Under the pieces are notes generated by a model. The model searched no databases, had not been told where the DNA came from, and saw only the letters and a program-made list of their open reading frames with translations. A program made the translations under genes and the position numbers. Shown here in pieces: positions 1-26,185 of a stretch of 64,000 nucleotides of DNA. Source of the stretch: Chitiniphilus shinanonensis DSM 23277 (GTDB taxonomy: Bacteria; Pseudomonadota; Gammaproteobacteria; Burkholderiales; Chitinibacteraceae); the NCBI RefSeq assembly GCF_000374805.1, contig NZ_KB895335.1, forward strand, positions 244,046-308,045, in the 5' to 3' direction. How positions within the stretch are numbered: position 1 is the first letter of the stretch; each line of letters starts with the position of its first letter.

Positions 1-632
1 ATATCCGCCTTCACCAAGATCCGGAAAGTACTTTCAAAAAGCTTGGTTCCTTCACGAAACTCCGATCGTTTATCCTCTAGCCTATTGCTCCGGGACATAA
101 GGATTACGAGTGGGGGTTTCGTCTTTCGCTCCGCAATCGCGCTAGCAAGGCCATCAATAGACACTTTGATATCGTCCGTCCGCTGCGCCGAGCAGAGGTA
201 GAGATCCATGAAGACAATGTCAGTATCGGCAACTGCAGGCACAAAATCTCGTCCCACTAAATTGCACGTCAAGCCAGAGGCTTCGAGCAACTCACGCAAA
301 ACATTTAAGTGTCCAATGTCTGCTTGCATGTCTGCTGTGTACCGCGCAAACAATGTTTGACAGAGCATTGGAGCGATTTGCTTCCTATTATCCCAAAGGC
401 AACGCACAAATCCGTCTGACTTTTGAAGCTCCTCCGCCTCCAGCTCTGAGTATCCAGGGAAAGCAACATCTAATGAATTATGGTCATCCGCGCTCAAATC
501 ATCAAAGAACTGTGTCCACTGCTGACTATCAACTGAGAGATCATCGGCAAGTGGAATTTCATCGATGGCGTCATCGACGATTAGTGCTCTAGTGATGTTC
601 GCCGCGGCGAGGATATCTGCGAGTTCAGCCAT
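1..632 (-). CDS. Partial CDS (N-terminal ~210 aa visible; C-terminus lies left of the window) encoding an atypical receiver (REC)-like domain protein. Its start ATG (632..630) overlaps the stop of the upstream kinase gene (TAATG).
   Basis: Own translation of the minus strand from 632: MAELADILAAANITRALIVDDAIDE...DIVFMDLYL...PPLVILMSRS...FRILVKADI. The DD / D / S / K succession is typical of CheY-like receivers, but an acidic insertion of ~70 aa separates the DD pair from the putative phospho-Asp. It is absent from the ORF track because it runs off the window edge. Low-GC codon usage matches the island. Confidence 0.5.
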   Translation of the reverse strand, partial: MAELADILAAANITRALIVDDAIDEIPLADDLSVDSQQWTQFFDDLSADDHNSLDVAFPGYSELEAEELQKSDGFVRCLWDNRKQIAPMLCQTLFARYTADMQADIGHLNVLRELLEASGLTCNLVGRDFVPAVADTDIVFMDLYLCSAQRTDDIKVSIDGLASAIAERKTKPPLVILMSRSNRLEDKRSEFREGTKLFESTFRILVKAD

Positions 633-2989
633 TATTTTGTCGTGTTCAATGGAAGTTCAAGTATGAAACGATTGAGGCGGCCATTGGCGTTTTCTGGACT
701 GGGATCAAGCGTCAAGGTGCCCCCCATGTAGGTCGCACACTCGCGCGCGATGAATAAGCCAAGTCCACGGCGCTTCGATTTCTCTTTCAACGAGAAGAAG
801 GATCTGAAAATGCGCTCACAGTTTTCTTGAGCAATGCCGGGGCCGTTGTCTTCGAAGAGGATGGTCGGGGGGGAGGGCAAAAGCGTAATGGAGATCGTGG
901 ACTTCTTTCCGGATTGCTTGCCAGCACCCATGTCCAGCCAATATTTAGAATTTGAGATCAGATTTTCAATTATTTGAACTACCATGCCCTTAACAGTTCG
1001 CACATTTACCGCGTCATCCGACATGGAGAGCTTCACTGAGATTTTGTGGCGCTCAAACTGAGCTTCATGGGCTTCAAGCGTGTTCAGGATGAGGTCACGC
1101 AAATCAAATGTTTCGACGCGCTGACGTCCTGAGACGCTAAGAGGATCCAACACCCGAATCCTCTTACCCACGCTTTTCATTTGAGCCCTGAGGGAGTCCA
1201 ACTTTACCTTGACTTCCGCAGGAACATTCTTGCCTCGAAGCGCCTCGAGGTTTTCGAGGGCGTTTTCAGATGCTCGTGCAAGCTCATGAGCCACGACCTC
1301 GACCATGAGGCCAACTCCAGCCATCTCTATCATCTGCCGACTTTCTTGTTCAACTTCCTCAATGCGTTGGCGAGCGCGCTCTGCGAACTCTGAAAAATCA
1401 AACAGTGTTTGTTGAAGCTCTTCAAGAGATGGGTCATCCCTTGGGGCGATTTTCCGAAGTTTTGCTAAAGCGTTTTTCGCGCGGGTGTCTAAGTTCGCGA
1501 CCTCAGTTTTAGCTTGGCTGAGGTCAACCTTCTGTGACTTATATTGCTTCTCAACGTTCTTCATCGACTTGAATAGCAAGTCCTGAATCACGTATTGCAT
1601 GATTCCCAAAAAAACTTGCTGCTCAGGGGTTTCGCGTAGGCCTTCCCGATTGGTTTGGTCAACCAAAGCGGGATTATTAACCCGTGAAATTTCAACTTTG
1701 CCTACGAACTGAGCCTTGTTGAGGGTGTATCCGGTTCGGGCTAGCGCCTTGCGATCCAAGGCAAGCCAGTCATCTTCGTCCTCACCATAGGGGAATACCC
1801 GGAATCCATCTCGATATAGCAGAATCCCAGACCAACGCTGCTGCTGTTCTCGCACCGCTCGCAGGTCGCCAATCCCATCCATAGAAGTGAGAAGACGCCG
1901 GTTATACCAATGTACCTGGAAGGTGAATGGTCCCAGTGATGCAAGAGCGCTTTCTGGTATTTCTCGCGAGGTGCCAATCACAGCCGATTCAAGGTCTTCG
2001 GCTGAAATGAGATAGTTTTCTGACTCCACCGGATGGGGAAAGCCAAGATTTTTTATCTCTATATCACATGTGAGCTGCGGCTTTCCCTCCGCGACTGTGT
2101 ATGCCCCGCTGACGGACACATGCGCACCTTGGATAAGCGCTTTTTGCATCCACGGAATACCGATGCGCTCCTCATTCCAATACAGTGCAACTCGTGGGCG
2201 TTTCTTGGGATCAATAAAGGGATCCGTCAAACGTGAGAAGTCATAGTCCGCCATTCGCTTAATACGTTCTGCAGTCCAATCTTCGGTGAGCTTTCCAATG
2301 ATGATTCGCGTCCCCGACCAACCGGTGTTCTCAATTGCATCGCCGAGTGTGGGATAAATGTCGATATCCGCCAGCATGGCATCAATTTGGGTGAAGGCAG
2401 ACCAGTCGATGTGGAGACAATTGATACGGCTGTCTGTAGCTCTGGCTGTCTCAACTCGAAGCATGTCACCAAGCCGCATAGCGGATAACCGCCCAATGCC
2501 CTTCTCTCCAAGAAACGGCGATTTTGACTCGCCAGCTCGGAGGGCTTTGTCAACCTCTCGCTTTCGAGACGCAGTGCCAATGACTAAGAAATTATTGTTC
2601 AGGTCATCAACGGACATGCCAGAGCCCGTGTCGCTAATGACAATGTGGCTCATCTCGTAAATTTTATCGAGGGCGTCCGCAAGTTCTTGGCCAGTATTTG
2701 CTTTTTGAATCAGCACCTTGGATTGGTCAAGCAGCTCAATGGACGCATCAGCATTCAACGCAGCAAGTGCGAGTGAAGTAACTACGCTGGTTGATTTTGG
2801 ATTCGCGAGCGCTTTGCGGCGCAACTCTAAGTAAGCATTGCGACGAATTACTATATTGAACCGGATGTCGACGCCATCCTTGGTCCTAGCATCAAAACCG
2901 TTCTTAATCAGTTCATAAAAAGCAATGATGTCTGAACTAATTAGTTCAGAACCTAGCTCCAAAACCGTGCGTGCCGTGATTTTGAACAC
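632..2989 (-). CDS. 785-aa dual Bergerat-fold protein: N-terminal MORC/HSP90-like GHKL ATPase fused to a C-terminal histidine-kinase core (H-box-like AHELARA plus HATPase_c).
   Basis: The N-terminus has ELIKNGFDA (N-box), DTGSGM (G1) and GEKGIGRLS (G2). The C-terminus has VAHELARASENALENL (H-box-like), IIENLISNSKYW (N-box), FEDNGPGI (G1), IFRSFFS (F) and GLGLFIAR (G2). GTG start at 2989 with AAGGAA 6 nt upstream. It lies 70 bp downstream of the PAPS-reductase gene. Confidence 0.75.
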   Translation of the reverse strand: MFKITARTVLELGSELISSDIIAFYELIKNGFDARTKDGVDIRFNIVIRRNAYLELRRKALANPKSTSVVTSLALAALNADASIELLDQSKVLIQKANTGQELADALDKIYEMSHIVISDTGSGMSVDDLNNNFLVIGTASRKREVDKALRAGESKSPFLGEKGIGRLSAMRLGDMLRVETARATDSRINCLHIDWSAFTQIDAMLADIDIYPTLGDAIENTGWSGTRIIIGKLTEDWTAERIKRMADYDFSRLTDPFIDPKKRPRVALYWNEERIGIPWMQKALIQGAHVSVSGAYTVAEGKPQLTCDIEIKNLGFPHPVESENYLISAEDLESAVIGTSREIPESALASLGPFTFQVHWYNRRLLTSMDGIGDLRAVREQQQRWSGILLYRDGFRVFPYGEDEDDWLALDRKALARTGYTLNKAQFVGKVEISRVNNPALVDQTNREGLRETPEQQVFLGIMQYVIQDLLFKSMKNVEKQYKSQKVDLSQAKTEVANLDTRAKNALAKLRKIAPRDDPSLEELQQTLFDFSEFAERARQRIEEVEQESRQMIEMAGVGLMVEVVAHELARASENALENLEALRGKNVPAEVKVKLDSLRAQMKSVGKRIRVLDPLSVSGRQRVETFDLRDLILNTLEAHEAQFERHKISVKLSMSDDAVNVRTVKGMVVQIIENLISNSKYWLDMGAGKQSGKKSTISITLLPSPPTILFEDNGPGIAQENCERIFRSFFSLKEKSKRRGLGLFIARECATYMGGTLTLDPSPENANGRLNRFILELPLNTTK

Positions 2990-3059
2990 TGTATGTTTCC
3001 TTAGTATCCCATCACCGTATCAATAATTGATCCGCCGCTGAATAAGCGCATTCCATTTC

Positions 3060-3902
3060 TCACTTATGGCAGATCAAGCAGGATCCGCCGCCTTCGTCCT
3101 CGCCGTAGACGTCATCGATGTCCTCAGGGCAGGCTTTCTCAGGCCGCAGCGGATTGATCGGGATGGCTCTACGTATGCGAGTGCGGCGAATCTCGTATTC
3201 CGCCTCGATCTCCGCCACGCGCTCCGGTTGCTCCAAGTCGCCAAGAGATTCGCCCTTAGACCACGTAAAGGGAGAGCCGTGCTCCAAAGCGTCCTTCTCC
3301 AAGGCCTTCGCCGCTTCGTAGGCCTCGGGATGCCTCTCCCTGAGGCGAACCCATTCAATCTTTTGCTGGAAGAAGCAGAACGTGCACCCGCTGCGCGAAC
3401 GCCAGTCATAATACTTGGGATAGCCGACGCCGGAGTTCTCCAAAATGTCGATCACCCCTGCCTTGTCGATCCCTGCCTCACGAAAGGGTAGCTTAACGAA
3501 CAAATTGTCTGCCTTGGCTGCATAGCCTTCTCGGTAGTCCTCATCGGCTCGAATGGCAACGTATGAGGTGACCGTGTCACCAGCTGCCAGCATAGGCCTA
3601 ACCCACTCTTCGAACGGAGCCAGCTTCAACTGCCGGGTGCACCAGCGCGAGTTAGGATTGGGTAGAAAGTGGTTGTATTGACGCAGCCAAAAGTTGAAAG
3701 TCCGCTTGGGATTCAGGCGTGCGATCGGCTTGCCAAGAAAGCCCTCAAGCTTCCCAAGGAACTCCTCAACCTCGGGAAGCTCCTCACCGGTGTCGGTAAA
3801 GAAGTAGTCGATGTCGAGCTCAGGGTGGCGGTCGCGCATGTAGACAGCCAGTGCGGCACTGTCTTTCCCGCCAGAGATACCGAGAACGTGCCGCTCAGCC
3901 AT
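3060..3902 (-). CDS. PAPS-reductase / PP-loop ATP pyrophosphatase family protein (SspD/DndC-like, 280 aa).
   Basis: PP-loop motif GISGGKDSAALA near the N-terminus and C-terminal Cys clusters (CTFCFF, CLIC). An 8-nt overlap with the upstream ATPase gene (its stop at 3895..3897) suggests translational coupling. Confidence 0.8.
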   Translation of the reverse strand: MAERHVLGISGGKDSAALAVYMRDRHPELDIDYFFTDTGEELPEVEEFLGKLEGFLGKPIARLNPKRTFNFWLRQYNHFLPNPNSRWCTRQLKLAPFEEWVRPMLAAGDTVTSYVAIRADEDYREGYAAKADNLFVKLPFREAGIDKAGVIDILENSGVGYPKYYDWRSRSGCTFCFFQQKIEWVRLRERHPEAYEAAKALEKDALEHGSPFTWSKGESLGDLEQPERVAEIEAEYEIRRTRIRRAIPINPLRPEKACPEDIDDVYGEDEGGGSCLICHK

Positions 3903-6900
3903 CTGTAGCCTCCTTATCGATAGACGCCAACTTCATCCCCGCCTTGGCCAGAATCGCTAGTAGGACTTCAGTTTTCAATCCTTGACCTTCCAGCAGCGAA
4001 GCGACCTCGTCGGCCTTGGTCTCTACTGTCTCGCGGTAGCGATCAGATATCGCGAACGAACGCGAAATAGTCTTCGTATCCGCCCCTGCGCCGATGACAA
4101 CAGCAATTGCTTCGCTATGCGCTTTACGCCCCTGCACTGCTACAAACGCTTCAGCTTCACGGAAACGCCGAGCAAACTTCACCAGCTCCAAAATCGCGGC
4201 ATCGATGTGACGGTCAACCCAATCCCTCGGGGGTTTTTCAGCTGCCAAGCTCAGAATGCCCTCAAGCGAAGCCCTGCTGCCGTCGAAGTTGGCCAAGCGT
4301 GTCGCAAATGCATCAAGGCGTAGATCACCCGAAATACCCGTGACGGACCTAGCTCTTTCACGCAGAGCCTTAAGATCATCGCGGCTCGCATCAAGCGCTT
4401 CGAACATCTTGGCCTCTACCTCGTTCAGCATCTTTCCGTAAGCACCAGCGAGCTCTTGAAGGGGGGCACGTAAGGCCTTCACGTAGGTTTTGCCATTGGC
4501 CGCATTCAGCAGCGAAGTGAGATCAACGAATAAGACCTTGTGGGGGTCGCTGGCCTTTAGAAGCAGGTCACGCATGTCCTTGGCTGTTTGCCCCAACCGA
4601 GCAGTCCTTTGAGACCATTCGGGAAGATTAAACACCATCGCCACTAGCCCACGAGCAGCTTCAAGTGGGTCTGCCGCCTCGGCCTTCTCGCCAACTTCTG
4701 TTAGGAGCTTAGAAATACCCTGAAGAATGCGGCTCTTGTCCTCATCAATGGCTACCCAGCGCAACGAGAAGCGATTTGGATCCTGAAGGCACTCGTCAAT
4801 GTCGAAGTCGGTCAACCTCGGGACGAACATACCATCCTTGTAAACGGCGACGTTGGCCTTATGAGCCAACAAAAAAGCCGCAAAGATGACAGGTTGCACA
4901 CCCAGCCTTACACCGAAAGGCGGCGCGCTCCACAGCGAGTAAATTTCGTGCGCGCCTATTCGGGTAGCGGCATCCGAAAACAGGGACCTAGTCGCTCTCC
5001 AAAGGGGTTCAAATCCTGCCGCAAAACCATCGCCAGGTGGCGTGAAACGCCATGCACCAGAGGTGTCTTTACGATGCAACCCCGTGCTATTGAGTAGGGT
5101 CTCGTAAAGCCCTCGTTCAGCGGGAAATCCCTCGAAGCCTAGTGCCTCCTGACCCTCGGCCTTAATCATCGCGTGCAGCAGCTCGCGTCGAGCCTTCACG
5201 CTGTTGCTCGACACGCCATCTCGGTTAACCAACTCGCTCCAAATTGGCGGCGAACTGCTGAACAATTCATTTGCGAGGCGTGAGGCAATGGGCGAGAGCT
5301 TTGAGCCTAGTTCAACGGCTTCATCGGTTCCGTTGTGCCACTGAGCCTGCGACACCGCAGTTTGGAGCTGATACTCCAGGCTTGCTCGCGTGGCGACCAG
5401 CCGAGCATAGACCTCACGTCGAGCGACTGCATCGCCTTGGAGCTCATGGCTATCTTTGACTTGCTCCAGCGCTACCAGCTCAGCAGAAAGCTCAGCGATG
5501 CGAGCATGATTGGCAGGAATACCAACCATCACTGGCCAGGGGCAAAGCCTGGAGCAGGCCCGAGCGCGCAATTGAGATGCCTGCTGGCTCTCTCCTTTGC
5601 CAGGCAATGCAAGGATAAACGCACCAAACTCGCCGTTCTTGGGCTGGAACTTGGCTGCGATCTTCTCCGCCTCCTCGATACTGCACAGCGAGAGTTCCAT
5701 CCAGCGCATGGTGCCAGTCTGATGGTAATGCCGTTTGGCTACCACAGGATGCAGGCTCATAAGCTGGGCTAGACGGCCATAATCGATACTCGAAGATGCA
5801 GCCATGGCTTGGGTAATAGCCGCATCAATATTGAAATCGCTGCCCTCAAATACCGACCAGGCACCGGTATAGCTCTTGTAGAGAACAACTTTCAGCGAGC
5901 GCAGTTTTTGAAGTGCAGCATCGAGCTCTTCTCTCTCTTGGTCAAGGAAGAGCGAGCCAAGCACGAAGGCATCGGCGGCCAAGCCTGATCCGTTGCGGAA
6001 CAGGTCGATGACCGCGATGTTCTTGATAAGCGCCACCAAAAGTGGGTCGCCGGCTTTGGCTTCTGCTCGCTCTACAGCCTCAACTGCTTGGGACCAGCGA
6101 TGCCCATCTGCAGAAGCGAGAATTGCCGGCTCCAGGTTCGAGCGCAGGTAGTCCCAGTAGTCATTCGGGCGGTACCAACTCGCTTCGCTCTTGAGCGTCG
6201 AATTCAGATATGAGTGGAAGCCATGAGGCTCAACCGAAGACAAGAATCCAAACGTACTGCGCTCGTTCTGCCCGAACTGTCGCTTGGAGATTGGCCCTAA
6301 CAGGGCTGCCATAGCAGGATGCAATGGCCAGCAAGCTTCCAATGCCGTGGCAAAGTTTGTCCCCACAGCAGGCCTGCGAGACCGGATTGCATCCGCGATG
6401 ATCTTGGATGCGTCTCGCATCTCAAGCGGGCGCTCGTCTGTTTCGATTGCGCGGCCAATCAGCTCAACAACTTCATCGCTTGCGGCCACGAAGGGCAAGT
6501 CGGCATAACGTCCTTGCACCTTTGCCCAATCGTCACGAGTATCGATACCCAAGCGGGCCGAATACTGTGCAAAAGATTGATGTAGCACGCCGATGACAAC
6601 AAGCCGCCCTTCAGAACGCGCTGCGGCTTCAGCCAGCTCTTGGAAGAAATAGACGTCATCCTCCGAGCCGAGGGCCGATGCCTCCAAGAATTTGCCCATC
6701 TCATCGATCAATAGCAGCACACCGTCATGTGGACGACTCTTAGCCTGTTCAAGTAAATCAGCGATGAGGCTTTGCGCGTTTGGCTCGTTAGAGCGATCGA
6801 TCGTCCTGCCCAGCGCACGACATACTGCCGCATGGAGGTCGCTGACTACGCTGCCTCGGCGGCCCACTGCCGGGACAATCAACCACCCCGCTTGGACGGG

Positions 6901-7230
6901 GAAGGCTCTGTCGAAAGTGGGCTTGGAGTCTAGGCTCAGGACTTGGCGGGCCTTCGTGCGGAGATCTTCGTCGGGATGTAATGCGCTCGCCAAGGCGACA
7001 GCGAGCGAGCTTTTACCTCCGCCAAACGGGCCGGTCCAAGTAAAGCAGCGCTGGTTAGTGCTAACAAGCTGATTGCATATCCCATCGATGACAGCAGTCG
7101 CAGTCGCGTGGCAGATGTAGCCGGATAGGGCGTCAGCTCTGCCAATGTCGGCGTCGATGCGGATGGAGCGCTGGTATTGGCGCGAAATCTGGACAACATC
7201 TGCCAGAGTCTGTTGCATCTGGTCAGTCAT
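3895..7230 (-). CDS. Large (1111 aa) P-loop NTPase, SspC-like ATPase of a phosphorothioation-type module.
   Basis: Walker A GPFGGGKSS and Walker B-like LLLIDEMGKF. ATG at 7230 overlaps the stop of the upstream DUF4007-like gene (ATGACTGA). Sits in the low-GC island. Confidence 0.8.
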   Translation of the reverse strand: MTDQMQQTLADVVQISRQYQRSIRIDADIGRADALSGYICHATATAVIDGICNQLVSTNQRCFTWTGPFGGGKSSLAVALASALHPDEDLRTKARQVLSLDSKPTFDRAFPVQAGWLIVPAVGRRGSVVSDLHAAVCRALGRTIDRSNEPNAQSLIADLLEQAKSRPHDGVLLLIDEMGKFLEASALGSEDDVYFFQELAEAAARSEGRLVVIGVLHQSFAQYSARLGIDTRDDWAKVQGRYADLPFVAASDEVVELIGRAIETDERPLEMRDASKIIADAIRSRRPAVGTNFATALEACWPLHPAMAALLGPISKRQFGQNERSTFGFLSSVEPHGFHSYLNSTLKSEASWYRPNDYWDYLRSNLEPAILASADGHRWSQAVEAVERAEAKAGDPLLVALIKNIAVIDLFRNGSGLAADAFVLGSLFLDQEREELDAALQKLRSLKVVLYKSYTGAWSVFEGSDFNIDAAITQAMAASSSIDYGRLAQLMSLHPVVAKRHYHQTGTMRWMELSLCSIEEAEKIAAKFQPKNGEFGAFILALPGKGESQQASQLRARACSRLCPWPVMVGIPANHARIAELSAELVALEQVKDSHELQGDAVARREVYARLVATRASLEYQLQTAVSQAQWHNGTDEAVELGSKLSPIASRLANELFSSSPPIWSELVNRDGVSSNSVKARRELLHAMIKAEGQEALGFEGFPAERGLYETLLNSTGLHRKDTSGAWRFTPPGDGFAAGFEPLWRATRSLFSDAATRIGAHEIYSLWSAPPFGVRLGVQPVIFAAFLLAHKANVAVYKDGMFVPRLTDFDIDECLQDPNRFSLRWVAIDEDKSRILQGISKLLTEVGEKAEAADPLEAARGLVAMVFNLPEWSQRTARLGQTAKDMRDLLLKASDPHKVLFVDLTSLLNAANGKTYVKALRAPLQELAGAYGKMLNEVEAKMFEALDASRDDLKALRERARSVTGISGDLRLDAFATRLANFDGSRASLEGILSLAAEKPPRDWVDRHIDAAILELVKFARRFREAEAFVAVQGRKAHSEAIAVVIGAGADTKTISRSFAISDRYRETVETKADEVASLLEGQGLKTEVLLAILAKAGMKLASIDKEATDG

Positions 7231-8176
7231 ATGCCCGCCTGATCATGTTCTTAATGTCTTCCTTGGACAGTTCTTTGCGATGGACTTGGCGAAGACCAGC
7301 GGAATCAGTCCATTCAAGTTTCTGGCCAGTGAAATCCGAAAGCGCAATCAACTTTTGGGCAATCGACTCCTCATCGAGTTTGAATACGCGCCCCGGCGAT
7401 CCTTCTTCGTAGGCAATCGTCTCAAATGCCAATGAACTTTGCCCTGATGCAATACGGTCCCAAAAGTCAACAAGTGCATAAGCAAAAACGCCTACGTGCA
7501 GCGATGACTTTGGGCCTCGACGGAAAGCGTAGTGCCCCTTGTACACTTCTTGGAGTAAACCAAGTTCTCCTAACAGAGGTTCGGCGAAATCTTCCGGCGT
7601 TCCTCCAGCCGCACGCGGCGCATAACTTCGAACGCACGTCTCCAAATCCCTGGAAATCGTCACTTTCGACAAACGGTGTTTGGGGTCAAGATCCCGGGCA
7701 TAGTCATTCAAAGACTCTTCCAAGTCTGCACGGGAGAAAGTGGGAGCCGATACGTGATTGAACAACCAAAACCACGTGGTAGACCGTATACATCGCCCTG
7801 CTAGCTGCCAATGCACGAGCCATGCGGTCGCGGGGTTTTCTGCGTAAGGATCCAATCCGTCATCACGCAATATCTCAGCAGCAAGCTCGTTTACTTGGAA
7901 CCCTTCCGAGTCGATCTCATCAAGGATTCCGCACGCCAAAGCCCAATGTTTCATGGACGCGACCATGTTTTTGCCAACGCCAAACTTGGCAATGGCATCG
8001 GCGTCAGCAAAGGCAGTTTTGAGGATTTTCCCGTTGGGGTCAGCGCGATTAAAGACCTTTTTCAGCCACATCTGACGAAGTGGGAAAGTCTCATGTCCTG
8101 AGAAGTGGGCAGGAACCCCGGAGCGTGCTTGGGTAGTCATAGCAGCATTATAAGGCGGCCAACTGGTGATGGTCAC
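7223..8176 (-). CDS. DUF4007-like protein (SspB-like putative nickase), about 305-317 aa.
   Basis: N-terminal FSGHETFPLRQMW motif, as I recall for DUF4007/SspB proteins. It is the first gene of the operon and the GC drop begins just upstream. The ORF starts with GTG at 8176; an alternative ATG is at 8140. Confidence 0.65.
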   Translation of the reverse strand: MTITSWPPYNAAMTTQARSGVPAHFSGHETFPLRQMWLKKVFNRADPNGKILKTAFADADAIAKFGVGKNMVASMKHWALACGILDEIDSEGFQVNELAAEILRDDGLDPYAENPATAWLVHWQLAGRCIRSTTWFWLFNHVSAPTFSRADLEESLNDYARDLDPKHRLSKVTISRDLETCVRSYAPRAAGGTPEDFAEPLLGELGLLQEVYKGHYAFRRGPKSSLHVGVFAYALVDFWDRIASGQSSLAFETIAYEEGSPGRVFKLDEESIAQKLIALSDFTGQKLEWTDSAGLRQVHRKELSKEDIKNMIRRAYD

Positions 8177-8472
8177 CAGTTGGCCGCCGCGTGTAAAACT
8201 ACGCTCCTTTCCTGCTTAGCCTGCAAGCGAAAAGAACAAGCAACCTTATGATTTTTTGCAAAAAATTCTCTTTCATCCTTGGTGTCGTTGATCTACTGCT
8301 CAAGCGCGAGCAAGCCAAAACCCCACCAGAATGTCATCACGTGCACTCTCGCTCTGCTCAACGATCTAGCGCTCGGAACGGAAGTTTTATGATGGAAGAA
8401 TAAAGAGGATGAGGTGAGCCTTGATACGCTCGCCGGCAATGCCCGCATCCAACCCATCCTGCAACGGGAAGC

Positions 8473-9309
8473 TCAATGCTTCGGCGCCTTGCCGTGCTGC
8501 CTGAGCAATGCGGCGGCCTCCCGCCGGTCGGCCTGTTCGGCCAGCATCAGCGCGGTCTTGCCGCGCTGGTTCTTGAGGCTTGGATCTGCGCCATCAGCCA
8601 ACAGCAGCTCGATCAGCGCAACGTCGCCCCGCAGTGCGGCGAGCATCAATGCGGTGGTGCCCTGCCGGCGGACCCGTGCATTCACCGGCGTTTTCATGGC
8701 CAGCAGTCGTTTCGCCAACGACTGCTTCGCCGGGCAGGTCGTGCCATCCGGGCATGAGGCCATTGCCAGCAGATGCAACGCGGTCATGCCACCATCCGTC
8801 ATGGCAACCGCGCTGGCGCCCAGATCGAGCAGGACATGCGCGTTGTCCCACCGGCTCGCGGCGATGGCGCTCATCAACGGCGTGCCACCGTCGCTGTCCC
8901 TGGGTTCGTCAGGGCGCGCGCCACGATCCAGCAGGTAGCGAACTTGGGCGGGCGTGCTGATGACCGTGGCGTAGCCAAGCCAACTCATGTCGATGAGACA
9001 GGCGTTCGGGCTGGCGCCCGCCTGCAGCATGCGGGCGATCCCTGCCGTGCCCGCGCTGGGCGCCAAGGCGTTGAGGAAGTGCACGGCGTATTCATCACCC
9101 GGCAGTGGCGGGATCGGCTTGTTCGTCGCTTGCGCACGCGCGGCTTGCTCGCTCCAGTTCAACAACTCGGTCACGTCGACCTCGGATGCGGGGCAGCGAT
9201 CGACCGCGGAAGATGGCGCGGCACCCGCGACCGTTGCTTGAAGCAGGATGCCGATGACCAGCGCCTGCGATACCGCCCGGCACACGGACCCGGAAACCCT
9301 CATCGCCAA
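8473..9309 (-). CDS. Secreted ankyrin-repeat protein (signal peptide plus at least 4 ANK repeats).
   Basis: N-terminal hydrophobic h-region ending AGAAP. Repeats of the form G.TPLM.A...LLL.GA; GTTALMLAALRGDVALIELLLADGADP. Confidence 0.75.
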   Translation of the reverse strand: MAMRVSGSVCRAVSQALVIGILLQATVAGAAPSSAVDRCPASEVDVTELLNWSEQAARAQATNKPIPPLPGDEYAVHFLNALAPSAGTAGIARMLQAGASPNACLIDMSWLGYATVISTPAQVRYLLDRGARPDEPRDSDGGTPLMSAIAASRWDNAHVLLDLGASAVAMTDGGMTALHLLAMASCPDGTTCPAKQSLAKRLLAMKTPVNARVRRQGTTALMLAALRGDVALIELLLADGADPSLKNQRGKTALMLAEQADRREAAALLRQHGKAPKH

Positions 9310-9371
9310 CTGAAAGCCCCTTTATCGGTTCCCGGTTGGCACGGCGGTGCGGCGACACCCGAATTTGCCGA

Positions 9372-10121
9372 TCACCGCTTGCCCAGCAACTGCGCGATGC
9401 TTTGGTTTCCCGCCGCGATGGCGAGATCGCGCGCAGTCTGGCCGCTGCTGTTTTTCTGCGAGACATCCGCACCACGGGCGAGCAGCACCTCGACCAGTTG
9501 TTGGTTGCCCAGCTCCGCAGCAATCATCAATGCGGTATCGCGGGTTCCGAATGCCGTCGCATTCACACGGTAGCCCCCATGCCGGATCAAGTAATCGGCG
9601 AACACGGCGGCGCCACGGAAGTCGTCATTGAGCGCGACCAGCGGCAGCAAAGTGGGGTTTTGAGCCGCATCGGGCAGACGGGCGCCGGCCTTGAGCAACT
9701 GGCAGGCAATGCCGAACTGGCCAGCGGCCAGCGCCCCCTGGAAAGGGGTTTGCCCGCTCCAGCCCGGCGCATCAACTTTGGCCCCGGCCTTGAGCAGCTC
9801 CTGAGCAGCCGGCCAGTTGCCTACCACCGCCGCCATCTCCAGCCACGTGTAACCCAAGGCACCTTGCTTTTGATCCAGCGCGCGCCGATTTTGCTGAAGC
9901 AGCATTCTCAACCGGGAGGTCGGTTCCCCGGCCACGATGGCATAACGAACCGCATCAGTGCGCGAACCCAACTTGAGCGGTGGCGAGTAGGGCTTGATTT
10001 CCACCCGCTCGCAAAAGGGCCGCAGCACAGGGGGCAACTCGCCCGCAGCGGAAATAGCCGGGCCACAAAGCTGCAAGGCAACAAAACAGAGCAGCGTCTT
10101 GAATGACGACATGGAGTCCAT
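9372..10121 (-). CDS. Secreted ankyrin-repeat protein, paralog of the preceding gene.
   Basis: Signal-peptide-like N-terminus (TLLCFVALQLCGPAISAAG). ANK repeats such as DTALMIAAELGNQQLVEVLLARGADV. Confidence 0.75.
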   Translation of the reverse strand: MDSMSSFKTLLCFVALQLCGPAISAAGELPPVLRPFCERVEIKPYSPPLKLGSRTDAVRYAIVAGEPTSRLRMLLQQNRRALDQKQGALGYTWLEMAAVVGNWPAAQELLKAGAKVDAPGWSGQTPFQGALAAGQFGIACQLLKAGARLPDAAQNPTLLPLVALNDDFRGAAVFADYLIRHGGYRVNATAFGTRDTALMIAAELGNQQLVEVLLARGADVSQKNSSGQTARDLAIAAGNQSIAQLLGKR

Positions 10122-10136
10122 TCCACAAAATCGAGG

Positions 10137-11036
10137 CTATTGCTGACCGGCGTTCTGCATGGCGCTCTGTAGCAACGCATTGGCCTCATCGTAACGGTGC
10201 TGCGTCATCAGCTGGATAAATGTCTTGGACTCGTACACATCAAAAATGCCCTTGTCCTCAAGCCGCTTGGCAATCTGCATCGCCCGCAGCGCGCTGATTC
10301 CACTGGCCTTTTCCGTATCCAGCAACCCAATCCCCAAGTCAACCAGCGGCCCCAAACCCCGCGTGACCACGCTGCCCTTGGCCGCCCGCAACGCAGCCTC
10401 GGCGGATTTCAGCTGAGAGGCCGCCTTGGCGCCCGCCGTCGCCTGGCGCGCGTCCTCGGCCTTCAGGTACTGGCCCAGCCGCGAGGTCGAATAGGTGGCC
10501 TCCTTGGTCGGCAAGGTGCCGGCCTTGCTGCCCAGCACGTCGGCGAACGGGCCCCAGCGGTCGCGCTTCATCGCGTCCTTCACCGAGGTTTCCAGCCATT
10601 TTTCCAGCGTGCCGGAGAACTTGCCGGTGAACAGCCCGGCTAAACCACCGGCCGCCGCTTCGAGGTTCTTCGAGCCGGCCTTCATGCCTATCATGCTTTC
10701 GCTGAGCAGGCGGAACTGCGGGTAGCGTTGCAGCAGCAGCCAGGTTTGCGGGTCCTGCCGCTTCAGTTCCGCCATCACCGCCGCCATATGCGTGGGACGG
10801 TTGCGCCGCAGGTATTCCAGGTAGTTCAGGTAGTCGTTCAGCTTGGGGATGCGCTTTTTCGCTTCGCCGATCAGCGTCTGCGCCTGCTGGTAGTCGGCCC
10901 GGGCATCCCGGTCCATGCCACGGCCGGGCTGCACGCTTTCCACCTTGCGGCCGCGCGGGTCGAGCGGCGGGCGATCCGAGTATTCGACGTTGCCGTAGGC
11001 ATCGGTGATTTTATAAAGCGAAGCCATTGCACTCAT
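10137..11036 (-). CDS. DUF4124-like domain protein with a long alpha-helical/charged C-terminal region (299 aa, no signal peptide).
   Basis: N-terminal YKITDAYGNVEYSDRPP matches the DUF4124 signature (Y..D..G...YSD.PP). The overlapping ORFs in other frames are R/G/A/P-rich artefacts. Confidence 0.6.
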   Translation of the reverse strand: MSAMASLYKITDAYGNVEYSDRPPLDPRGRKVESVQPGRGMDRDARADYQQAQTLIGEAKKRIPKLNDYLNYLEYLRRNRPTHMAAVMAELKRQDPQTWLLLQRYPQFRLLSESMIGMKAGSKNLEAAAGGLAGLFTGKFSGTLEKWLETSVKDAMKRDRWGPFADVLGSKAGTLPTKEATYSTSRLGQYLKAEDARQATAGAKAASQLKSAEAALRAAKGSVVTRGLGPLVDLGIGLLDTEKASGISALRAMQIAKRLEDKGIFDVYESKTFIQLMTQHRYDEANALLQSAMQNAGQQ

Positions 11037-11106
11037 CCCGTCAATTCGACAACGCCGACATCACGGCGGCGGCGGCGTCCCGGCTTATCCGCAAGGGCGA
11101 ATCGCC

Positions 11107-11526
11107 CTAGGCGCCCCAATTGGCCTGCCTGAGCGACTTCAGTATCGCCACGGCGGGATCGCTCGCGCTGCCCGCCCCCATCGGCGGCGACATTCCGCCC
11201 AGGTCGGCGCCGGGTTCGAGCACGCGGCGGTGGATCAGCTGGCCGCGCTCGAAGCACAGCAGTTCGGGCAGGTCTTCGGGCAGGTAGTCGCCGATGAATT
11301 CGGCATGCTCTTCCAGATCCAGCCACAGCCAGAGGTGCAGCGGATGGCTTTGCTGTTCGGTCGCCGCCGTGGCAAGCAGGGCCGGGTAGAGGGTGCGGCA
11401 TTTCTCGCACCACGCCTGCGCGCCCAACACCACGCAGGCGCGGGTGTCGGCCTGGTTCAGGCGGTCCGCGATGCGGCGGGCATCGGTCCATGGGTCCAGC
11501 AAGGCGATGTCGGACGAGGGGGTCAT
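11107..11526 (-). CDS. Small thioredoxin-fold-like protein with a CxxC motif (139 aa). It is the last gene of the vgrG operon.
   Basis: Real start MTPSSDIALL sits inside ORF 11107..12405, whose N-terminal 290 aa are Arg/Ala-rich junk. CEKC motif. ATGA overlap with the upstream gene at 11523..11526. Confidence 0.55.
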   Translation of the reverse strand: MTPSSDIALLDPWTDARRIADRLNQADTRACVVLGAQAWCEKCRTLYPALLATAATEQQSHPLHLWLWLDLEEHAEFIGDYLPEDLPELLCFERGQLIHRRVLEPGADLGGMSPPMGAGSASDPAVAILKSLRQANWGA

Positions 11527-13049
11527 CGATGCTCCGATACAGGCTGCGGCGCGGCGTGGGTGTCGGCGAACACGGGGCCCTTGACGCGCGTGGCGGCGAC
11601 CGGGGCCAGCAGCATCAGCCCGTGGGCGGCGACGGCGCGCACCGCGTGGGGATGATCGCCGTCGACCACGTTGCGCAGCCATTCCCGGCTGGCGGGGCGG
11701 CCGAGCAGGTGCCGTTCGGTGTTGGCGACATTCGGCACCGGATACGCGACGATCCGCGCCACGTCCGGCTGGGGCAGGCCGTTGTCCGCGTCGCGCTGCG
11801 CGTCCTGGAGCGCGAACGGATCGCCCGGAGCGCCGGCCGCCGGAGCGCCGGCCGCCGGATCGCCCGCCGCCACATCGTCCGCGATGGTCTCCACGACCGC
11901 CTCGTCCGACTCGATCACCAGGCCGTGCGCTTCCAGGTCGATGCCGGTCAAGGTCTGCCAGACCCAGCCGGCGTGGCGAGCCAGCAATGGGTCCTGCATC
12001 CAGGCGACGATGCGCGGCAACTGCGCCAGATCGCCGTGATGCAGCAGGAAGGTCAGCGCCAGGCGCGGCGGCAGCTCGCGCAGGATCGCCGCGGCGTCGG
12101 GGCTGCCCGGCGGCGTCAGCCACGCCAGGCAGGCCAGCCAGCGCAGCAGCCGGCGCAGCACCCACTGCCGCGTCGCGCCGCTGCTTCGTTGCAGTTCGGC
12201 CAGTTGGGGCGGCAACACCTCGCGCAGGATGCGCCGGGCATCGAGCAGGTTGGCGTGGGCAGGGGCGCGCGCATACAGGCGCGCCAGCCCGAGCGCGGCC
12301 TCGGCGCGCACCGGCGCCTCGCTGTCTTCCAGCAACCGCCGCAGCAAGGCCGGCGGCGAGTGGTCGACCGTCGGCTGCAAACCATCCACCCATTTGGATT
12401 CCCACGCGGCGACAAGCTCGCTCAGCGGGCCGGTGGCCTGTTCATGGGGCAGCGCGTCGCCCCAGGCGCGAATCGCCATCGCGGCCAGCGCGCGGCAGGC
12501 CGCGGCGCGCACCCACGGCGACGGCTGCGCGCCGGGATCGTCGAGCAACGGGGCCAGGCCGGGGAACGGGTCGAAGCCGCCCGGCGTGGCGCCGATCAAC
12601 GCGGCGGCGCGCAAGGCGGCCACCTGCCCGATCTCGCCGCGTTGCGCCAGATACGCCAGCGCTTCGGGCCGGGCCGCTGCCGGCAGCCAGGCCACGGCGC
12701 TGATCAGGCCGCGCATCAGCGATTCCGGGGCGGCGGATACCCGGCCCAGCAGCGCTTCGATGGCCGCTGGGTCGCGGTGGCGCCACTGCAAACCCAGCCA
12801 GGCGGCGACGAAGGCTTCGCCCGGCTGGCCCCAGCGTTCCAGCGCCTTCAGCGCGGGCGCGACGCCGTGCTCCTCGGCGACCAGCAGCCCTTCCAGATGC
12901 GCATCGAGCAGGCGGTTGAAGTGCGCGTGCCGCTCCGGGTAGAGGTTGAACGCCCGCGCCGCGCCGTCCAGTTGCGCCCAGTAGAACGCGGCATCCTCGG
13001 CGTGGCGGATCAGCAGCGGTTCGATATGGGCGGAGATCGCGGCCTGCAT
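11523..13049 (-). CDS. HEAT/ARM-like repeat protein of the T6SS-associated TIGR02270 family (PA0101-like).
   Basis: Position downstream of the effector/immunity pair, as in the P. aeruginosa vgrG1b island. Leucine/alanine-rich helical repeat composition. Confidence 0.6.
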   Translation of the reverse strand: MQAAISAHIEPLLIRHAEDAAFYWAQLDGAARAFNLYPERHAHFNRLLDAHLEGLLVAEEHGVAPALKALERWGQPGEAFVAAWLGLQWRHRDPAAIEALLGRVSAAPESLMRGLISAVAWLPAAARPEALAYLAQRGEIGQVAALRAAALIGATPGGFDPFPGLAPLLDDPGAQPSPWVRAAACRALAAMAIRAWGDALPHEQATGPLSELVAAWESKWVDGLQPTVDHSPPALLRRLLEDSEAPVRAEAALGLARLYARAPAHANLLDARRILREVLPPQLAELQRSSGATRQWVLRRLLRWLACLAWLTPPGSPDAAAILRELPPRLALTFLLHHGDLAQLPRIVAWMQDPLLARHAGWVWQTLTGIDLEAHGLVIESDEAVVETIADDVAAGDPAAGAPAAGAPGDPFALQDAQRDADNGLPQPDVARIVAYPVPNVANTERHLLGRPASREWLRNVVDGDHPHAVRAVAAHGLMLLAPVAATRVKGPVFADTHAAPQPVSEHR

Positions 13050-13092
13050 CAGCGGCCGCCCGCATCGTGGCGCGACGGAAGCATCGGCCGGC

Positions 13093-14442: not shown

Positions 14443-14461
14443 GTTGTCCTTGAACCCGCTC

Positions 14462-18329: not shown

Positions 18330-18425
18330 GACGATCCCCCGAACCAGAGTAGTCCTGCCCGGTGGGACGGCAACGGCGATCCGGCAAGAAAGTGGAGGCT
18401 GGAAAAACGCACGGCCGGCGATTGC

Positions 18426-18971
18426 TCAGTTGAGGTTGACCGAGCCGCCCAGGATGCGCTGCGTGGCGCTGGCGTGGCTGGTGATGTAGGTGCCGCGCAG
18501 GGTGATGCGGCCGTCGGCGGTCATCACGATGGCGGCGTCGCCGCAGCGCAGTTCGATTTCCCGGGCGGCGTGCAGCGCGACGCGCTCGCCGTCCACCCAC
18601 AGGTCGAGGCCGTCGGCGGCGGCGGGCGCCGGGGCCGGCGTGGCCGGCGCGCCCAGCATCAGGCCCAGCACGATGGGGCGGCGCGGATCGTTGCTTTCGA
18701 ACCCCAGCGCCAGTTCGCAACCGATCTGTTCCGCGCCGAGGGCGACCATGCTGCGCGCGCCGACCGACGTCAGGCGCAGCGCGGGCACATGGACCAGCGG
18801 CAGCCCGGCCGCGTCGAAGCCGGCCAGTTGGCCGACGGCGATGCCGGTGGCCGTAGCGGGCAGCGTGGCGGTCTGTTCGAGCACCGAGTCGAGCAGGTCG
18901 GCGGACGCGGCGTCGGCTGCCGCGCCCGTATCCGGCTGAGTCGCGGCGGAAGTCCTGGCGGGCGCATTCAT
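18426..18971 (-). CDS. Hypothetical protein immediately downstream of vgrG (PA0096-like position).
   Basis: Starts 1 nt after the vgrG stop. Protein-like composition, whereas the overlapping frames are P/R/A-rich. Confidence 0.5.
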   Translation of the reverse strand: MNAPARTSAATQPDTGAAADAASADLLDSVLEQTATLPATATGIAVGQLAGFDAAGLPLVHVPALRLTSVGARSMVALGAEQIGCELALGFESNDPRRPIVLGLMLGAPATPAPAPAAADGLDLWVDGERVALHAAREIELRCGDAAIVMTADGRITLRGTYITSHASATQRILGGSVNLN

Positions 18972-18972
18972 C

Positions 18973-22452: not shown

Positions 22453-22457
22453 CGGGC

Positions 22458-23806: not shown

Positions 23807-23814
23807 GAACCGAC

Positions 23815-25221: not shown

Positions 25222-25222
25222 G

Positions 25223-26170: not shown

Positions 26171-26185
26171 CATGGAGCTTGTCCT

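What the first reader, a model, noticed from the sequence alone, without database searches (positions are those of the whole stretch)
632..2989. Protein with two Bergerat-fold ATPase domains: MORC/HSP90-like GHKL N-terminus fused to a histidine-kinase core
The N-terminal ~230 aa carry the motif I-III set of GHKL ATPases (ELIKNGFDA, DTGSGM, GEKGIGRLS). This is distinct from the C-terminal canonical HK catalytic domain, which has N, G1, F and G2 boxes and is preceded by an H-box-like AHELARA helix. Histidine kinases normally use PAS, HAMP or TM sensors. A MORC-like domain of the kind that clamps DNA in eukaryotic MORCs and some prokaryotic conflict systems would be an unusual input domain here. 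It suggests DNA or nucleotide sensing feeding a phosphorelay.
Basis: seen in the sequence. Interest (0 to 1): 0.7.

Follow-up and report, generated by a model that had tools for sequence, protein, structure and literature searches.

The report
MORC-like histidine kinase beside phosphorothioation genes
The gene encodes a soluble histidine kinase whose sensor is a MORC/Hsp90-like ATPase; the fusion was already described by computer analysis in 2021, and here it and its receiver-domain partner sit next to the SspBCD DNA-phosphorothioation genes, so they may be an untested defence or control arm of that system.

Summary
Window 632-2989 (minus strand) encodes a 785-aa soluble protein. It has an N-terminal GHKL ATPase plus transducer-like domain (MORC/SMCHD1/Hsp90/MutL-like), a coiled coil, a DHp helix with invariant His568, and a canonical kinase ATP-binding domain. 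All ATP-binding motifs of both Bergerat domains are conserved.

The architecture is not new. It is "group 1" (HATPase_c_3 + HEF_HK + HATPase_c) of the two-component-like family described in silico by Bellieny-Rabelo et al. 2021. That family is paired with an "RR-like" gene and linked to restriction-modification.

- The next gene overlaps the kinase stop codon (TAATG). It encodes a receiver-fold protein with the conserved Asp-Asp, Asp143, Ser180 and Lys208, plus a ~450-aa output domain with no detectable relative.
- Directly upstream are sspB, sspC and sspD.
- The kinase-partner cassette lies near ssp genes in 29 of 35 genome loci and in 15 of 15 plasmid records, in several arrangements, down to 31% identity (including Acinetobacter baumannii).

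My best reading is an Ssp-coupled two-component module: kinase His568 to partner Asp143, which then activates the output domain. Function is untested. It is a new member of a known kind.

The parts
632..2989 (-). Gene for the 785-aa soluble paraMORC-type histidine kinase (HEF_HK-type 'HK-like' protein). GTG start at 2989, TAA stop at 632-634.
   Evidence: ORF. Identical protein P0001 in Chitiniphilus shinanonensis. Pfam HATPase_c_3 plus HATPase_c. HEF_HK matched weakly in 31 of 34 family members.
2285..2989 (-). N-terminal Bergerat (GHKL) ATPase domain, aa 1 to about 235. It has motif I E26/N30/D33, a four-helix insertion at aa 50-113, motif II D120/G122/G124, and the lid G161-K163-G164-G166.
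   Evidence: Pfam PF13589 E 6e-14. NCBIfam BbrUII/HgiDII restriction-enzyme GHKL E 6e-15. TRAP1/Hsp90 sequence hits. These residues are invariant across the family. Model secondary structure.
1634..2284 (-). Transducer-like (S5-type) middle domain, aa about 236-452. It carries the conserved WSGILLYRDGFRVFPYG...DDW...NK...DQTNRE block (G388, R393, R397, D406-D407-W408, R448 invariant).
1334..1633 (-). Three long helices (aa about 453-552) joining the ATPase module to the kinase core; probably a coiled-coil signal transmitter.
   Evidence: Model helices H455-483, H491-514 and H520-549. Confidence is low, and the protein was modelled as a monomer.
1136..1333 (-). DHp (dimerisation and histidine-phosphotransfer) hairpin, aa about 553-618. 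The H-box is EVVAHELARA; the His568 codon is at 1286-1288.
635..1135 (-). Kinase catalytic ATP-binding (CA) domain, aa 619-785, with N, G1, F and G2 boxes.
1..632 (-). First 210 codons of the partner gene, cut by the window edge (full length 682 aa in contig BSOZ01000068.1). This part is the receiver (REC) domain with a helical insertion. D20-D21 lie within nt 561-584, D143 is at 204-206, S180 lies within 87-110, and K208 is at 9-11. The start ATG overlaps the kinase stop codon (TAATG).
3060..3902 (-). sspD (PAPS-reductase-like ATP pyrophosphatase of the Ssp phosphorothioation system), 70 nt upstream of the kinase gene.
   Evidence: PADLOC SspD E 5e-137, full length. Pfam PAPS_reduct.
3895..7230 (-). 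sspC (large P-loop ATPase of the Ssp system, related to BrxC/PglY).
   Evidence: PADLOC SspC, 1477 bits, full length.
7223..8176 (-). sspB (DUF4007 DNA-binding/nicking component of the Ssp system); first gene of the operon.
   Evidence: PADLOC SspB E 1.6e-116 and Pfam DUF4007 E 1.9e-87. G+C of 1-8000 is 50-56% against about 62-72% in the rest of the window.

Best explanation
The ORF is the kinase half of a dedicated two-gene, cytoplasmic two-component cassette that belongs functionally to the SspBCD DNA-phosphorothioation system.

Proposed mechanism, with what is shown and what is inferred:
1. SspBCD, with a host cysteine desulfurase, puts phosphorothioate marks on host DNA. This is established for Ssp systems generally; here it is inferred from homology.
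2. The kinase is a soluble dimer. Its N-terminal paraMORC/Hsp90-like GHKL-plus-transducer ATPase binds and hydrolyses ATP. By analogy with MORC, MutL and GyrB clamps, it engages DNA or the Ssp machinery and so reads whether DNA is marked. This step is inferred.
3. That ATPase cycle is passed through a ~100-residue coiled coil to the DHp/CA core, which autophosphorylates His568. The motifs are shown; the activity is inferred.
4. The phosphoryl group moves to Asp143 of the translationally coupled 682-aa partner. The receiver fold and catalytic residues are shown; the transfer is inferred.
5. Phosphorylation switches on the partner's family-specific ~450-aa output domain, which has an invariant Cys406 and nearly invariant Asp407, and conserved Arg484, Arg486 and Arg503. 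I think this most likely acts against unmarked (invading) DNA or aborts infection. That would make the pair a third kind of Ssp 'restriction' arm beside SspE and SspFGH. This last step is the weakest.
For: Domains and motifs:
- Two intact Bergerat domains plus an invariant H-box His.
- The partner has a receiver fold with conserved D20/D21, D143, S180 and K208.
- Gene coupling: the kinase stop overlaps the partner start here (TAATG) and by a few nt in nearly all loci.

Linkage to Ssp:
- sspB-sspC-sspD lie directly upstream on the same strand.
- SspD lies within 10 kb in 29 of 35 genome loci from many phyla. The arrangements differ: same strand, convergent, or separated by other genes.
- Four of the six exceptions are short or cut contigs, or have SspFGH running to the edge of the fetched locus. 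The other two are L029, which still has about 7.5 kb downstream of the partner with no ssp hit, and L030, a decayed kinase gene with no partner.
- All 15 plasmid-collection records with a full-length homolog are among the only 75 of 72,556 records with an SspD match, always within about 13 kb.
- Seven of these were inspected and all show kinase + partner + ssp(A)BCD.
- In Chlorohelix the pair sits inside the operon, between sspC and sspD.
- Distant representatives (31-37% identity), including A. baumannii, are also Ssp-linked.

Support for a defence role:
- In this genome, Methylorubrum, A. baumannii and an integrative element (L048), the pair is the only companion of ssp(A)BCD seen.
- 84% of sspBCD clusters lack SspE or SspFGH (PMC8092258).
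- The locus is a low-G+C island, and the cassette occurs on plasmids and integrative elements.
- There is a precedent for a defensive kinase to receiver-effector relay: Detocs (bioRxiv 10.1101/2023.01.24.525353).
- The wider family is enriched near restriction-modification genes (PMC8011034).
Against: - There is no experiment of any kind on this family.
- The pair often coexists with SspFGH (about 10 loci) or SspE (L015/L016), so it need not be 'the' restriction arm. Its position inside a modification operon fits a regulator equally well.
- What the GHKL module senses is unknown. DNA clamping is only an analogy.
- The structure models are of moderate confidence (pLDDT 75 and 79) and low in the DHp and transducer loops.
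- The samples are partly redundant. There are two identical Agrobacterium plasmids and three A. baumannii records, and the genome loci were recruited with peptides from this protein.
Confidence: 0.45

Rival explanations
1. The pair is a regulatory two-component system for the Ssp system. It senses phosphorothioate density, DNA state or nucleotide pools, and tunes SspBCD activity or the activity of neighbouring restriction modules (SspE, SspFGH), much as DndB does for Dnd. It kills nothing itself.
For: - The pair is tied to the modification genes rather than to any one restriction module. It occurs with sspBCD alone, with SspE, or with SspFGH, and inside the sspA-B-C-[pair]-D operon in Chlorohelix.
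- The authors who described the family proposed control of restriction-modification systems and possibly NTP sensing (PMC8011034). A 2020 survey speculated that these kinases regulate SspE in Acinetobacter (PMC7464106).
- Phosphorothioate marks are known to be partial and kept at a set density (PMC12914056), which invites a feedback device.
- The output domain shows no toxic fold.
Against: - The partner has no helix-turn-helix or other known regulatory output in any library searched.
- A 450-aa conserved output domain with an invariant Cys406, a nearly invariant Asp407 and several arginines looks more like an enzyme or DNA-binding machine than a simple switch.
- In many loci there is no other restriction gene to regulate.
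- The kinase gene is disrupted in some genomes: L020 is interrupted and L026 and L030 are truncated. That is commoner for costly defence genes.
Confidence: 0.3
2. The pair is an autonomous defence system, or an addiction module of mobile islands. It merely travels with ssp genes in defence islands and does not depend on phosphorothioate marks.
For: - Defence genes cluster. The neighbourhoods also hold AbiE, RES toxins, Mrr, HNH-STAND proteins and DndD/PbeC-like ATPases.
- Relatives described in 2021 sit mainly beside C5-cytosine methylases and Vsr, not ssp (PMC8011034). The module can therefore pair with other systems.
- One 10-kb contig (L047) shows the pair without visible ssp genes.
Against: - 15 of 15 plasmid records and 29 of 35 genome loci carry ssp genes nearby, in several gene orders and down to 31% identity. 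That is much tighter than ordinary island co-occurrence.
- No locus with ample flanks and an intact pair was seen to lack both SspBCD and SspFGH.
- The pair is embedded inside an ssp operon in one genome.
Confidence: 0.12
3. The N-terminal module works like Hsp90 or as a nucleotide sensor, not on DNA. It reports ATP/NTP levels or binds a protein client, for example a phage protein or an Ssp subunit, and that is the kinase's input.
For: - By sequence, the closest solved relatives of aa 69-200 are TRAP1, GRP94, HtpG and Hsp90, not MORC or MutL.
- Motif I ELIKNGFDA and motif II DTGSGM resemble Hsp90's ELISNSSDA and DTGIGMT. This comparison is from my memory of Hsp90, not from a tool.
- A nearly invariant N447 and invariant R448 (the 'NRE' triplet) recall the Hsp90 middle-domain catalytic Arg loop.
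- The authors of PMC8011034 suggested NTP sensing.
Against: - Fold comparison ranks SMCHD1 and MORC2 at or above Hsp90s.
- The best family-level match outside kinases is the GHKL domain of BbrUII/HgiDII-type restriction enzymes.
- The genomic context is all about DNA modification.
- The NRE loop is low-confidence in the model.
Confidence: 0.1
4. It is an ordinary sensor kinase with a decayed duplicate ATP-binding domain, and has no special role.
For: Public annotation calls it 'signal transduction histidine kinase' or 'ATP-binding protein'.
Against: - The N-terminal domain keeps every catalytic GHKL residue across 30-100% identity.
- It belongs to a different GHKL family (PF13589) and has its own transducer domain.
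- The architecture and length are fixed across at least 185 sequence clusters.
Confidence: 0.02

Closest known systems
HEF_HK / Response_reg_2 'two-component-system-like' pairs (Bellieny-Rabelo, Pretorius & Moleleki, Genome Biol Evol 2021, PMC8011034; Pfam PF19191 and PF19192)
   Same: - The architecture is the same as their 'group 1': N-terminal HATPase_c_3, a HisKA-like DHp with His-Glu, and C-terminal HATPase_c.
- The protein is soluble.
- An adjacent gene encodes a divergent receiver domain followed by an unknown region.
- The pair lies among DNA-modification and restriction genes.
- They proposed descent from paraMORC ATPases.
- HEF_HK is matched in 31 of 34 members of the present family.
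   Different: - The match of this protein to PF19191 is below Pfam's cut-off (16.6 against 24.1 bits).
- None of 34 partners matches PF19192 or any receiver model at E <= 0.05. This is therefore a divergent branch.
- The paper stresses C5-cytosine methylases, Vsr and type II restriction-modification, and its main text never mentions Ssp, DUF4007, PAPS reductase or phosphorothioation. Here the partner system is SspBCD.
- That paper is also purely computational.
Detocs (DtcA-DtcB-DtcC defensive two-component system; bioRxiv 10.1101/2023.01.24.525353)
   Same: The logic is the same: a cytoplasmic sensor kinase phosphorylates a receiver domain fused to a non-DNA-binding effector instead of a transcription factor. 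In Detocs the His and Asp are needed for phage defence.
   Different: - The Detocs sensor is a TPR array, not a GHKL ATPase.
- Detocs has a third 'buffer' receiver protein, DtcB, which is absent here.
- Its effectors are known folds (PNP ATP nucleosidase, nuclease, transmembrane); here the output is unknown.
- Detocs is not tied to a DNA-modification system.
- PADLOC gave no hit to this protein other than type II restriction-enzyme GHKL models.
SspE and SspFGH, the known restriction partners of SspABCD (Xiong et al. 2020, known to me only through other papers' reference lists; Wang et al. 2021, PMC8092258)
   Same: They share the genomic position, next to sspBCD. They are NTP-driven proteins that are supposed to read phosphorothioate status. 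Several partners can share one modification module: SspE and SspFGH are compatible and additive.
   Different: There is no sequence relationship. The kinase and partner hit no SspE, F, G or H model, whereas true SspE and SspFGH in neighbouring loci hit them strongly. SspE is a DUF262-family protein with PT-stimulated GTPase/NTPase and DNA-nicking activities; SspF has a Walker A motif and SspH resembles FtsK-like translocases. Neither uses phosphotransfer.
Prokaryotic MORC / paraMORC GHKL ATPases of restriction-modification systems (Iyer, Abhiman & Aravind 2008, PMC2292703) and eukaryotic MORC/SMCHD1
   Different: Here the module is fused to a complete histidine-kinase core, rather than working with a helicase or nuclease. 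The MORC signature GhXhhpXXRhl is only approximated: G388-ILLYRDGF-R397-VF has one extra residue. By sequence, Hsp90s score better than MORCs.

Membership tests
HEF_HK-type HK-like proteins (PF19191; PMC8011034) | DHp hairpin matching the HEF_HK profile, with a core His followed by an acidic residue | tested here: inconclusive
   This protein matches PF19191 at aa 559-618 with E 0.012 and 16.6 bits, below the 24.1-bit cut-off. 31 of 34 family members match at E <= 0.05, best 1.3e-5. H568-E569 are invariant.
HEF_HK-type HK-like proteins (PF19191; PMC8011034) | Group 1 architecture HATPase_c_3 + DHp + HATPase_c, soluble | tested here: met
   PF13589 at aa 113-200 and PF02518 at aa 670-782, both found in 34 of 34 members. 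No hydrophobic segment.
HEF_HK-type HK-like proteins (PF19191; PMC8011034) | Adjacent gene carrying the Response_reg_2 (PF19192) receiver-like domain | tested here: inconclusive
   An adjacent, overlapping gene with a receiver fold and the conserved Asp-Asp/Asp/Ser/Lys is present. However, none of 34 partners matches PF19192 at E <= 0.05. UniRef names the protein 'Response receiver d...'.
Class I (HisKA-type) sensor histidine kinase | H-box His on DHp helix 1, plus a CA domain with N, G1, F and G2 boxes | tested here: met
Class I (HisKA-type) sensor histidine kinase | ATP-dependent autophosphorylation and transfer to a cognate receiver Asp | not testable with these tools
   This needs biochemistry. 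Only the residues are shown: H568 in the kinase and D143 in the partner.
MORC / paraMORC ATPases | GHKL domain with all nucleotide-binding motifs, followed by an S5-fold domain | tested here: met
MORC / paraMORC ATPases | MORC-specific S5 motif GhXhhpXXRhl (PMC2292703) | tested here: inconclusive
   The sequence G388-I-L-L-Y-R-D-G-F-R397-V-F fits only with one extra residue before the Arg. G388, R393 and R397 are invariant.
Hsp90 / HtpG chaperones | Hsp90 N, middle and C-terminal dimerisation domains | tested here: not met
   Only the N-terminal GHKL region matches by sequence (aa 69-200, E 1.7e-7 with the family profile). The C-terminal half is a histidine-kinase core.
Detocs | Three genes: sensor kinase DtcA, stand-alone buffer receiver DtcB, and receiver-effector DtcC | tested here: not met
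   The cassette has two genes. Here gyrB follows directly. No small receiver gene lies between or beside the pair in the loci inspected. The kinase and partner had no PADLOC hits beyond restriction-enzyme GHKL models.
Ssp phosphorothioation-based defence (as an accessory module) | Conserved genomic coupling to sspBCD | tested here: met
   29 of 35 genome loci. 15 of 15 plasmid records, against 75 SspD-positive records in 72,556. Distant representatives are also linked.
Ssp phosphorothioation-based defence (as an accessory module) | Homology to a known Ssp restriction component (SspE, SspF, SspG or SspH) | tested here: not met
   There are no PADLOC SspE/F/G/H hits for the kinase or the partner. 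The same library detects SspE and SspFGH in neighbouring genes of other loci.
Ssp phosphorothioation-based defence (as an accessory module) | Activity that depends on, or is blocked by, phosphorothioate marks; protection against phage | not testable with these tools
   This requires genetics and biochemistry.

The most novel reading that the evidence does not exclude
The kinase-partner pair is the missing effector arm for a sizeable share of 'orphan' SspBCD systems. About 20% of SspD-positive plasmid records carry it, against about 7% each for SspE and SspFGH in the 2021 survey. In this reading a MORC-like ATP-driven clamp reads the phosphorothioate status of DNA and converts it into a His-to-Asp phosphorelay. 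That relay unleashes an effector domain of a fold not yet seen in solved structures. It would be the first case of an epigenetic DNA mark being read out through two-component signalling.
Probability: 0.3. Interest if true: 0.8.

Novelty: new member of a known kind. Interest (0 to 1): 0.5.

Why it matters
Most sspBCD clusters (84% in the 2021 survey, PMC8092258) have no known restriction partner. The role of the HEF_HK/RR-like pairs described in 2021 is also unknown. Showing that one clade of these pairs is almost always embedded in Ssp loci joins the two open questions and gives a direct test. This includes the Ssp locus described in global clone 2 Acinetobacter baumannii, where two papers noted 'a histidine kinase' beside ssp genes in passing (PMC7464106, PMC12421847); the A. 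baumannii record examined here carries the same arrangement. The test is to clone sspBCD plus the pair and mutate His568, Asp143, the N-terminal ATPase and Cys406/Asp407. If the pair is an effector, it adds a third Ssp defence type and a new effector fold. If it is a regulator, it may explain how phosphorothioate density is kept partial and constant.

Tried and rejected
- **Partner against the family libraries and PDB sequences.** Single-sequence searches of Pfam, PADLOC, NCBIfam and PDB, and the 82-sequence profile against PDB, gave nothing usable. The only hits were chance-level (TIR-STING E 0.13, RagA E 0.27).
No alignment. The receiver assignment therefore rests on the fold and the catalytic residues.
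- **Foldseek of the partner model against PDB.** No hit at E <= 0.001.
- **AFDB50 library.** Not available.
- **Profile of the output domain alone** (34 diverse sequences) against 5.8 billion proteins. The 120 listed of 300 hits are all the same 640-706-aa family (plus a few fragments), with no other architectures and no Pfam domains.
- **Literature.** The Aravind-lab papers on Dnd (PMC10853773), BREX (PMC12839542), NTP-dependent conflict systems (PMC7159879) and MORCs (PMC2292703) do not describe this fusion or pair. The BREX type 4 gut paper (PMC12914056) does not mention kinases. The supplements of PMC8011034 are not held, so I could not check whether DUF4007 or PAPS_reduct appear in its neighbourhood tables.
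- **Output domain as a papain-like or caspase-like Cys protease**, suggested by the conserved 'xxCDL' after a strand. Rejected as unsupported: no conserved His partner survives in the wide alignment.
- **Promoter and terminator scans.** No better than shuffled sequence.

Full report
**What is there.** Window 632-2989 on the minus strand is a 785-codon ORF with a GTG start. An identical protein is annotated as hypothetical protein GCM10007860_29920 of Chitiniphilus shinanonensis. Pfam finds two different Bergerat-fold domains: HATPase_c_3 (PF13589, aa 113-200, E 6e-14) and HATPase_c (PF02518, aa 670-782, E 1e-17). The protein has no hydrophobic segment.

**The N-terminal half.** It is a GHKL ATPase plus a second, transducer-like domain.
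- By sequence, the nearest solved proteins are TRAP1, GRP94 and HtpG.
- The nearest curated family outside kinases is the GHKL domain of BbrUII/HgiDII restriction enzymes.
- Motif I (E26, N30, D33), motif II (D120, G122, G124) and the lid (G161, K163, G164, G166) are invariant. So is a block in the second domain (G388, R393, R397, D406-D407-W408, R448).
- The MORC signature GhXhhpXXRhl (PMC2292703) is matched only with one extra residue.

I therefore call the module MORC/Hsp90-like (paraMORC-type) without choosing between them. Three long helices (aa 455-549) join it to the DHp.

**The partner gene.** The kinase stop codon overlaps the start of the next gene (TAATG). The window holds only that gene's first 210 codons (nt 632-1). 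The full gene is 682 aa in contig BSOZ01000068.1 and is followed by gyrB-dnaN-dnaA on the opposite strand.

The remaining ~450 residues consist of a helical region followed by a beta-rich domain. They have an invariant Cys406 and nearly invariant Asp407, and conserved Arg484, Arg486, Gln494 and Arg503. They have no detectable relative: Foldseek gives nothing at E <= 0.001, and a profile search returns only the same family.

**Context.** Immediately upstream on the same strand are SspD (3060-3902), SspC (3895-7230) and SspB (7223-8176). PADLOC E-values run from 5e-137 to 0, and Pfam DUF4007 gives 1.9e-87. The block has 50-56% G+C against about 62-72% for the rest of the window, so it is an acquired island. 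No SspE or SspFGH is present between gyrB and the flanking ankyrin genes.

**Is the linkage real?** The evidence comes from genome loci, plasmid records and distant representatives.
- *Genome loci.* I fetched 35 loci encoding relatives (52-90% identity, many phyla). The partner follows the kinase wherever the contig and the gene allow, usually with a short overlap. SspD lies within 10 kb in 29 of the 35.
- *Gene order.* The order varies: ssp genes upstream on the same strand, ssp genes downstream and convergent, or separated by SspE (L015/L016) or other genes.
- *The six exceptions.* Two are short contigs (L019, L033). Two have SspF-G-H running to the edge of the fetched locus (L011, L012). 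One is a contig cut inside the kinase gene that still has about 7.5 kb downstream of the partner without an ssp hit (L029). One is a decayed kinase gene with no partner (L030).
- *Plasmid records.* Exactly 15 records hold a full-length homolog (E <= 1e-40). All 15 are among the 75 records out of 72,556 with an SspD match, always within about 13 kb. Some records are redundant or are chromosomes filed as plasmids.
- *Inspected records.* All seven records I inspected show kinase + hypothetical partner + ssp(A)BCD. In Candidatus Chlorohelix the pair lies between sspC and sspD.
- *Distant representatives.* Members at 31-37% identity, including Acinetobacter baumannii, are also Ssp-linked. One 10-kb contig shows no ssp genes.
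- *Co-occurring partners.* SspFGH is also nearby in about ten loci.

**What is already known.** The architecture is not new. Bellieny-Rabelo et al. 2021 (PMC8011034) defined HEF_HK (PF19191) and Response_reg_2 (PF19192). They reported 91.6% adjacency of the two gene families in 644 regions. They found HATPase_c_3 + HEF_HK + HATPase_c in 174 of 222 sequences, noted that the proteins are soluble, found enrichment of restriction-modification genes (especially C5-methylases and Vsr), and proposed an origin from paraMORCs. Their main text never mentions Ssp, DUF4007, PAPS reductase or phosphorothioation.

The present protein matches HEF_HK below Pfam's cut-off, while 31 of 34 family members match weakly. 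None of 34 partners matches Response_reg_2. This is therefore a divergent, Ssp-associated branch of that family.

Two papers noticed in passing that histidine-kinase genes sit beside ssp genes in Acinetobacter (PMC7464106; PMC12421847). I confirmed that the A. baumannii gene is a full-length homolog at 31% identity with the same partner. I found no experimental work and no dedicated PADLOC or NCBIfam model. The library I could search lacks many subscription-journal papers.

**Mechanism.** These things are shown:
- two intact ATP-binding domains;
- an invariant phospho-His and a cognate receiver with all catalytic residues;
- translational coupling of the two genes;
- near-obligate linkage to Ssp genes.

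These things are inferred:
- the GHKL-transducer module senses DNA state or the Ssp machinery;
- this gates autophosphorylation of H568;
- the phosphoryl group passes to D143;
- the output domain then acts.

I favour a defence or restriction-like output (0.45). In several genomes the pair is the only companion of sspBCD. 84% of sspBCD clusters lack SspE or SspFGH. The cassette rides on islands, plasmids and integrative elements. Detocs is a precedent for a defensive kinase-to-effector relay.

A regulator of phosphorothioation or of neighbouring restriction modules is the main rival (0.3). Simple co-location (0.12) and a non-DNA, Hsp90-like or NTP-sensing input (0.1) cannot be excluded.

**Verdict.** The fusion is not novel, because it was described in silico in 2021. 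The new content here is the strong, specific tie to SspBCD, the fold-level confirmation of both proteins, and the orphan output domain. It is a new member of a known but uncharacterised kind, of moderate interest.

Noticed in passing
window 1-8200 (and L001 3975-13567): The five-gene block sspB-sspC-sspD-kinase-partner has 50-56% G+C against about 62-72% for the host. It lies between gyrB-dnaN-dnaA (next to the chromosome origin genes) and two ankyrin-repeat genes. No integrase or tRNA is in view, and there is no sspA; a host cysteine desulfurase would be needed.
   Followed up: partly
L008 14436-16877, L013 14375-16807, L021 7527-9959, L025 6567-9005, L036 7391-9829, L037 14441-16852, L039 16618-19143 (minus); possibly L045 11612-14035: A conserved ~810-aa protein (45-80% identical among seven loci) sits directly before the kinase or after the partner. 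It has only a weak HATPase_c_3 match in three of the seven and no PADLOC hit. L045 has a gene of similar size in the same position, not compared. It is a possible third component in a subset of cassettes, and it is absent from this window.
   Followed up: partly
L004 14524-17484, L014 14501-17428, L016 about 14503-17418: A ~980-aa protein with AAA_16/STAND and TPR domains (an HNH match in L014 only) follows the partner gene in L004 and L014, and tblastn finds a 36%-identical relative at the same place in L016. It is probably a separate defence gene.
   Followed up: no
L015/L016 7617-9944: A full-length SspE (PADLOC E 1.7e-280) lies between sspD and the kinase gene. The pair therefore coexists with SspE as well as with SspFGH.
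   Followed up: yes
L040 (Candidatus Chlorohelix plasmid) 6422-26351: The gene order is sspA-sspB-sspC-kinase-partner-sspD, then two genes and an FtsK-domain gene that look like SspF, SspG and SspH by position and size (not scanned). The pair sits between sspC and sspD in that same-strand run of ssp genes.
   Followed up: partly
L020 10001-18362; L026 10001-10825; L030 10001-11872: The kinase gene is interrupted about 4.4 kb before the partner in a Hydrogenophilales genome. It is truncated or frameshifted in two other genomes, and one of those has also lost the partner. This may be decay of a costly gene, or assembly errors.
   Followed up: no
L045 5370-6495: Two extra genes lie between sspC and sspD in one metagenomic locus. 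One has a nucleoside 2-deoxyribosyltransferase-like domain. An Mrr_cat nuclease gene follows the cassette.
   Followed up: no
L011 8269-9759 and L012 8423-9868: A ~490-aa protein with a weak methyltransferase-like match lies between SspH and the kinase gene in two Acidobacteria loci. In L011 a class I SAM methyltransferase resembling MADS mad2 lies downstream.
   Followed up: no
window 8473-9309: An ankyrin-repeat protein with a signal-peptide-like N-terminus lies at the high-G+C edge of the island. A second ankyrin gene follows in the contig.
   Followed up: no
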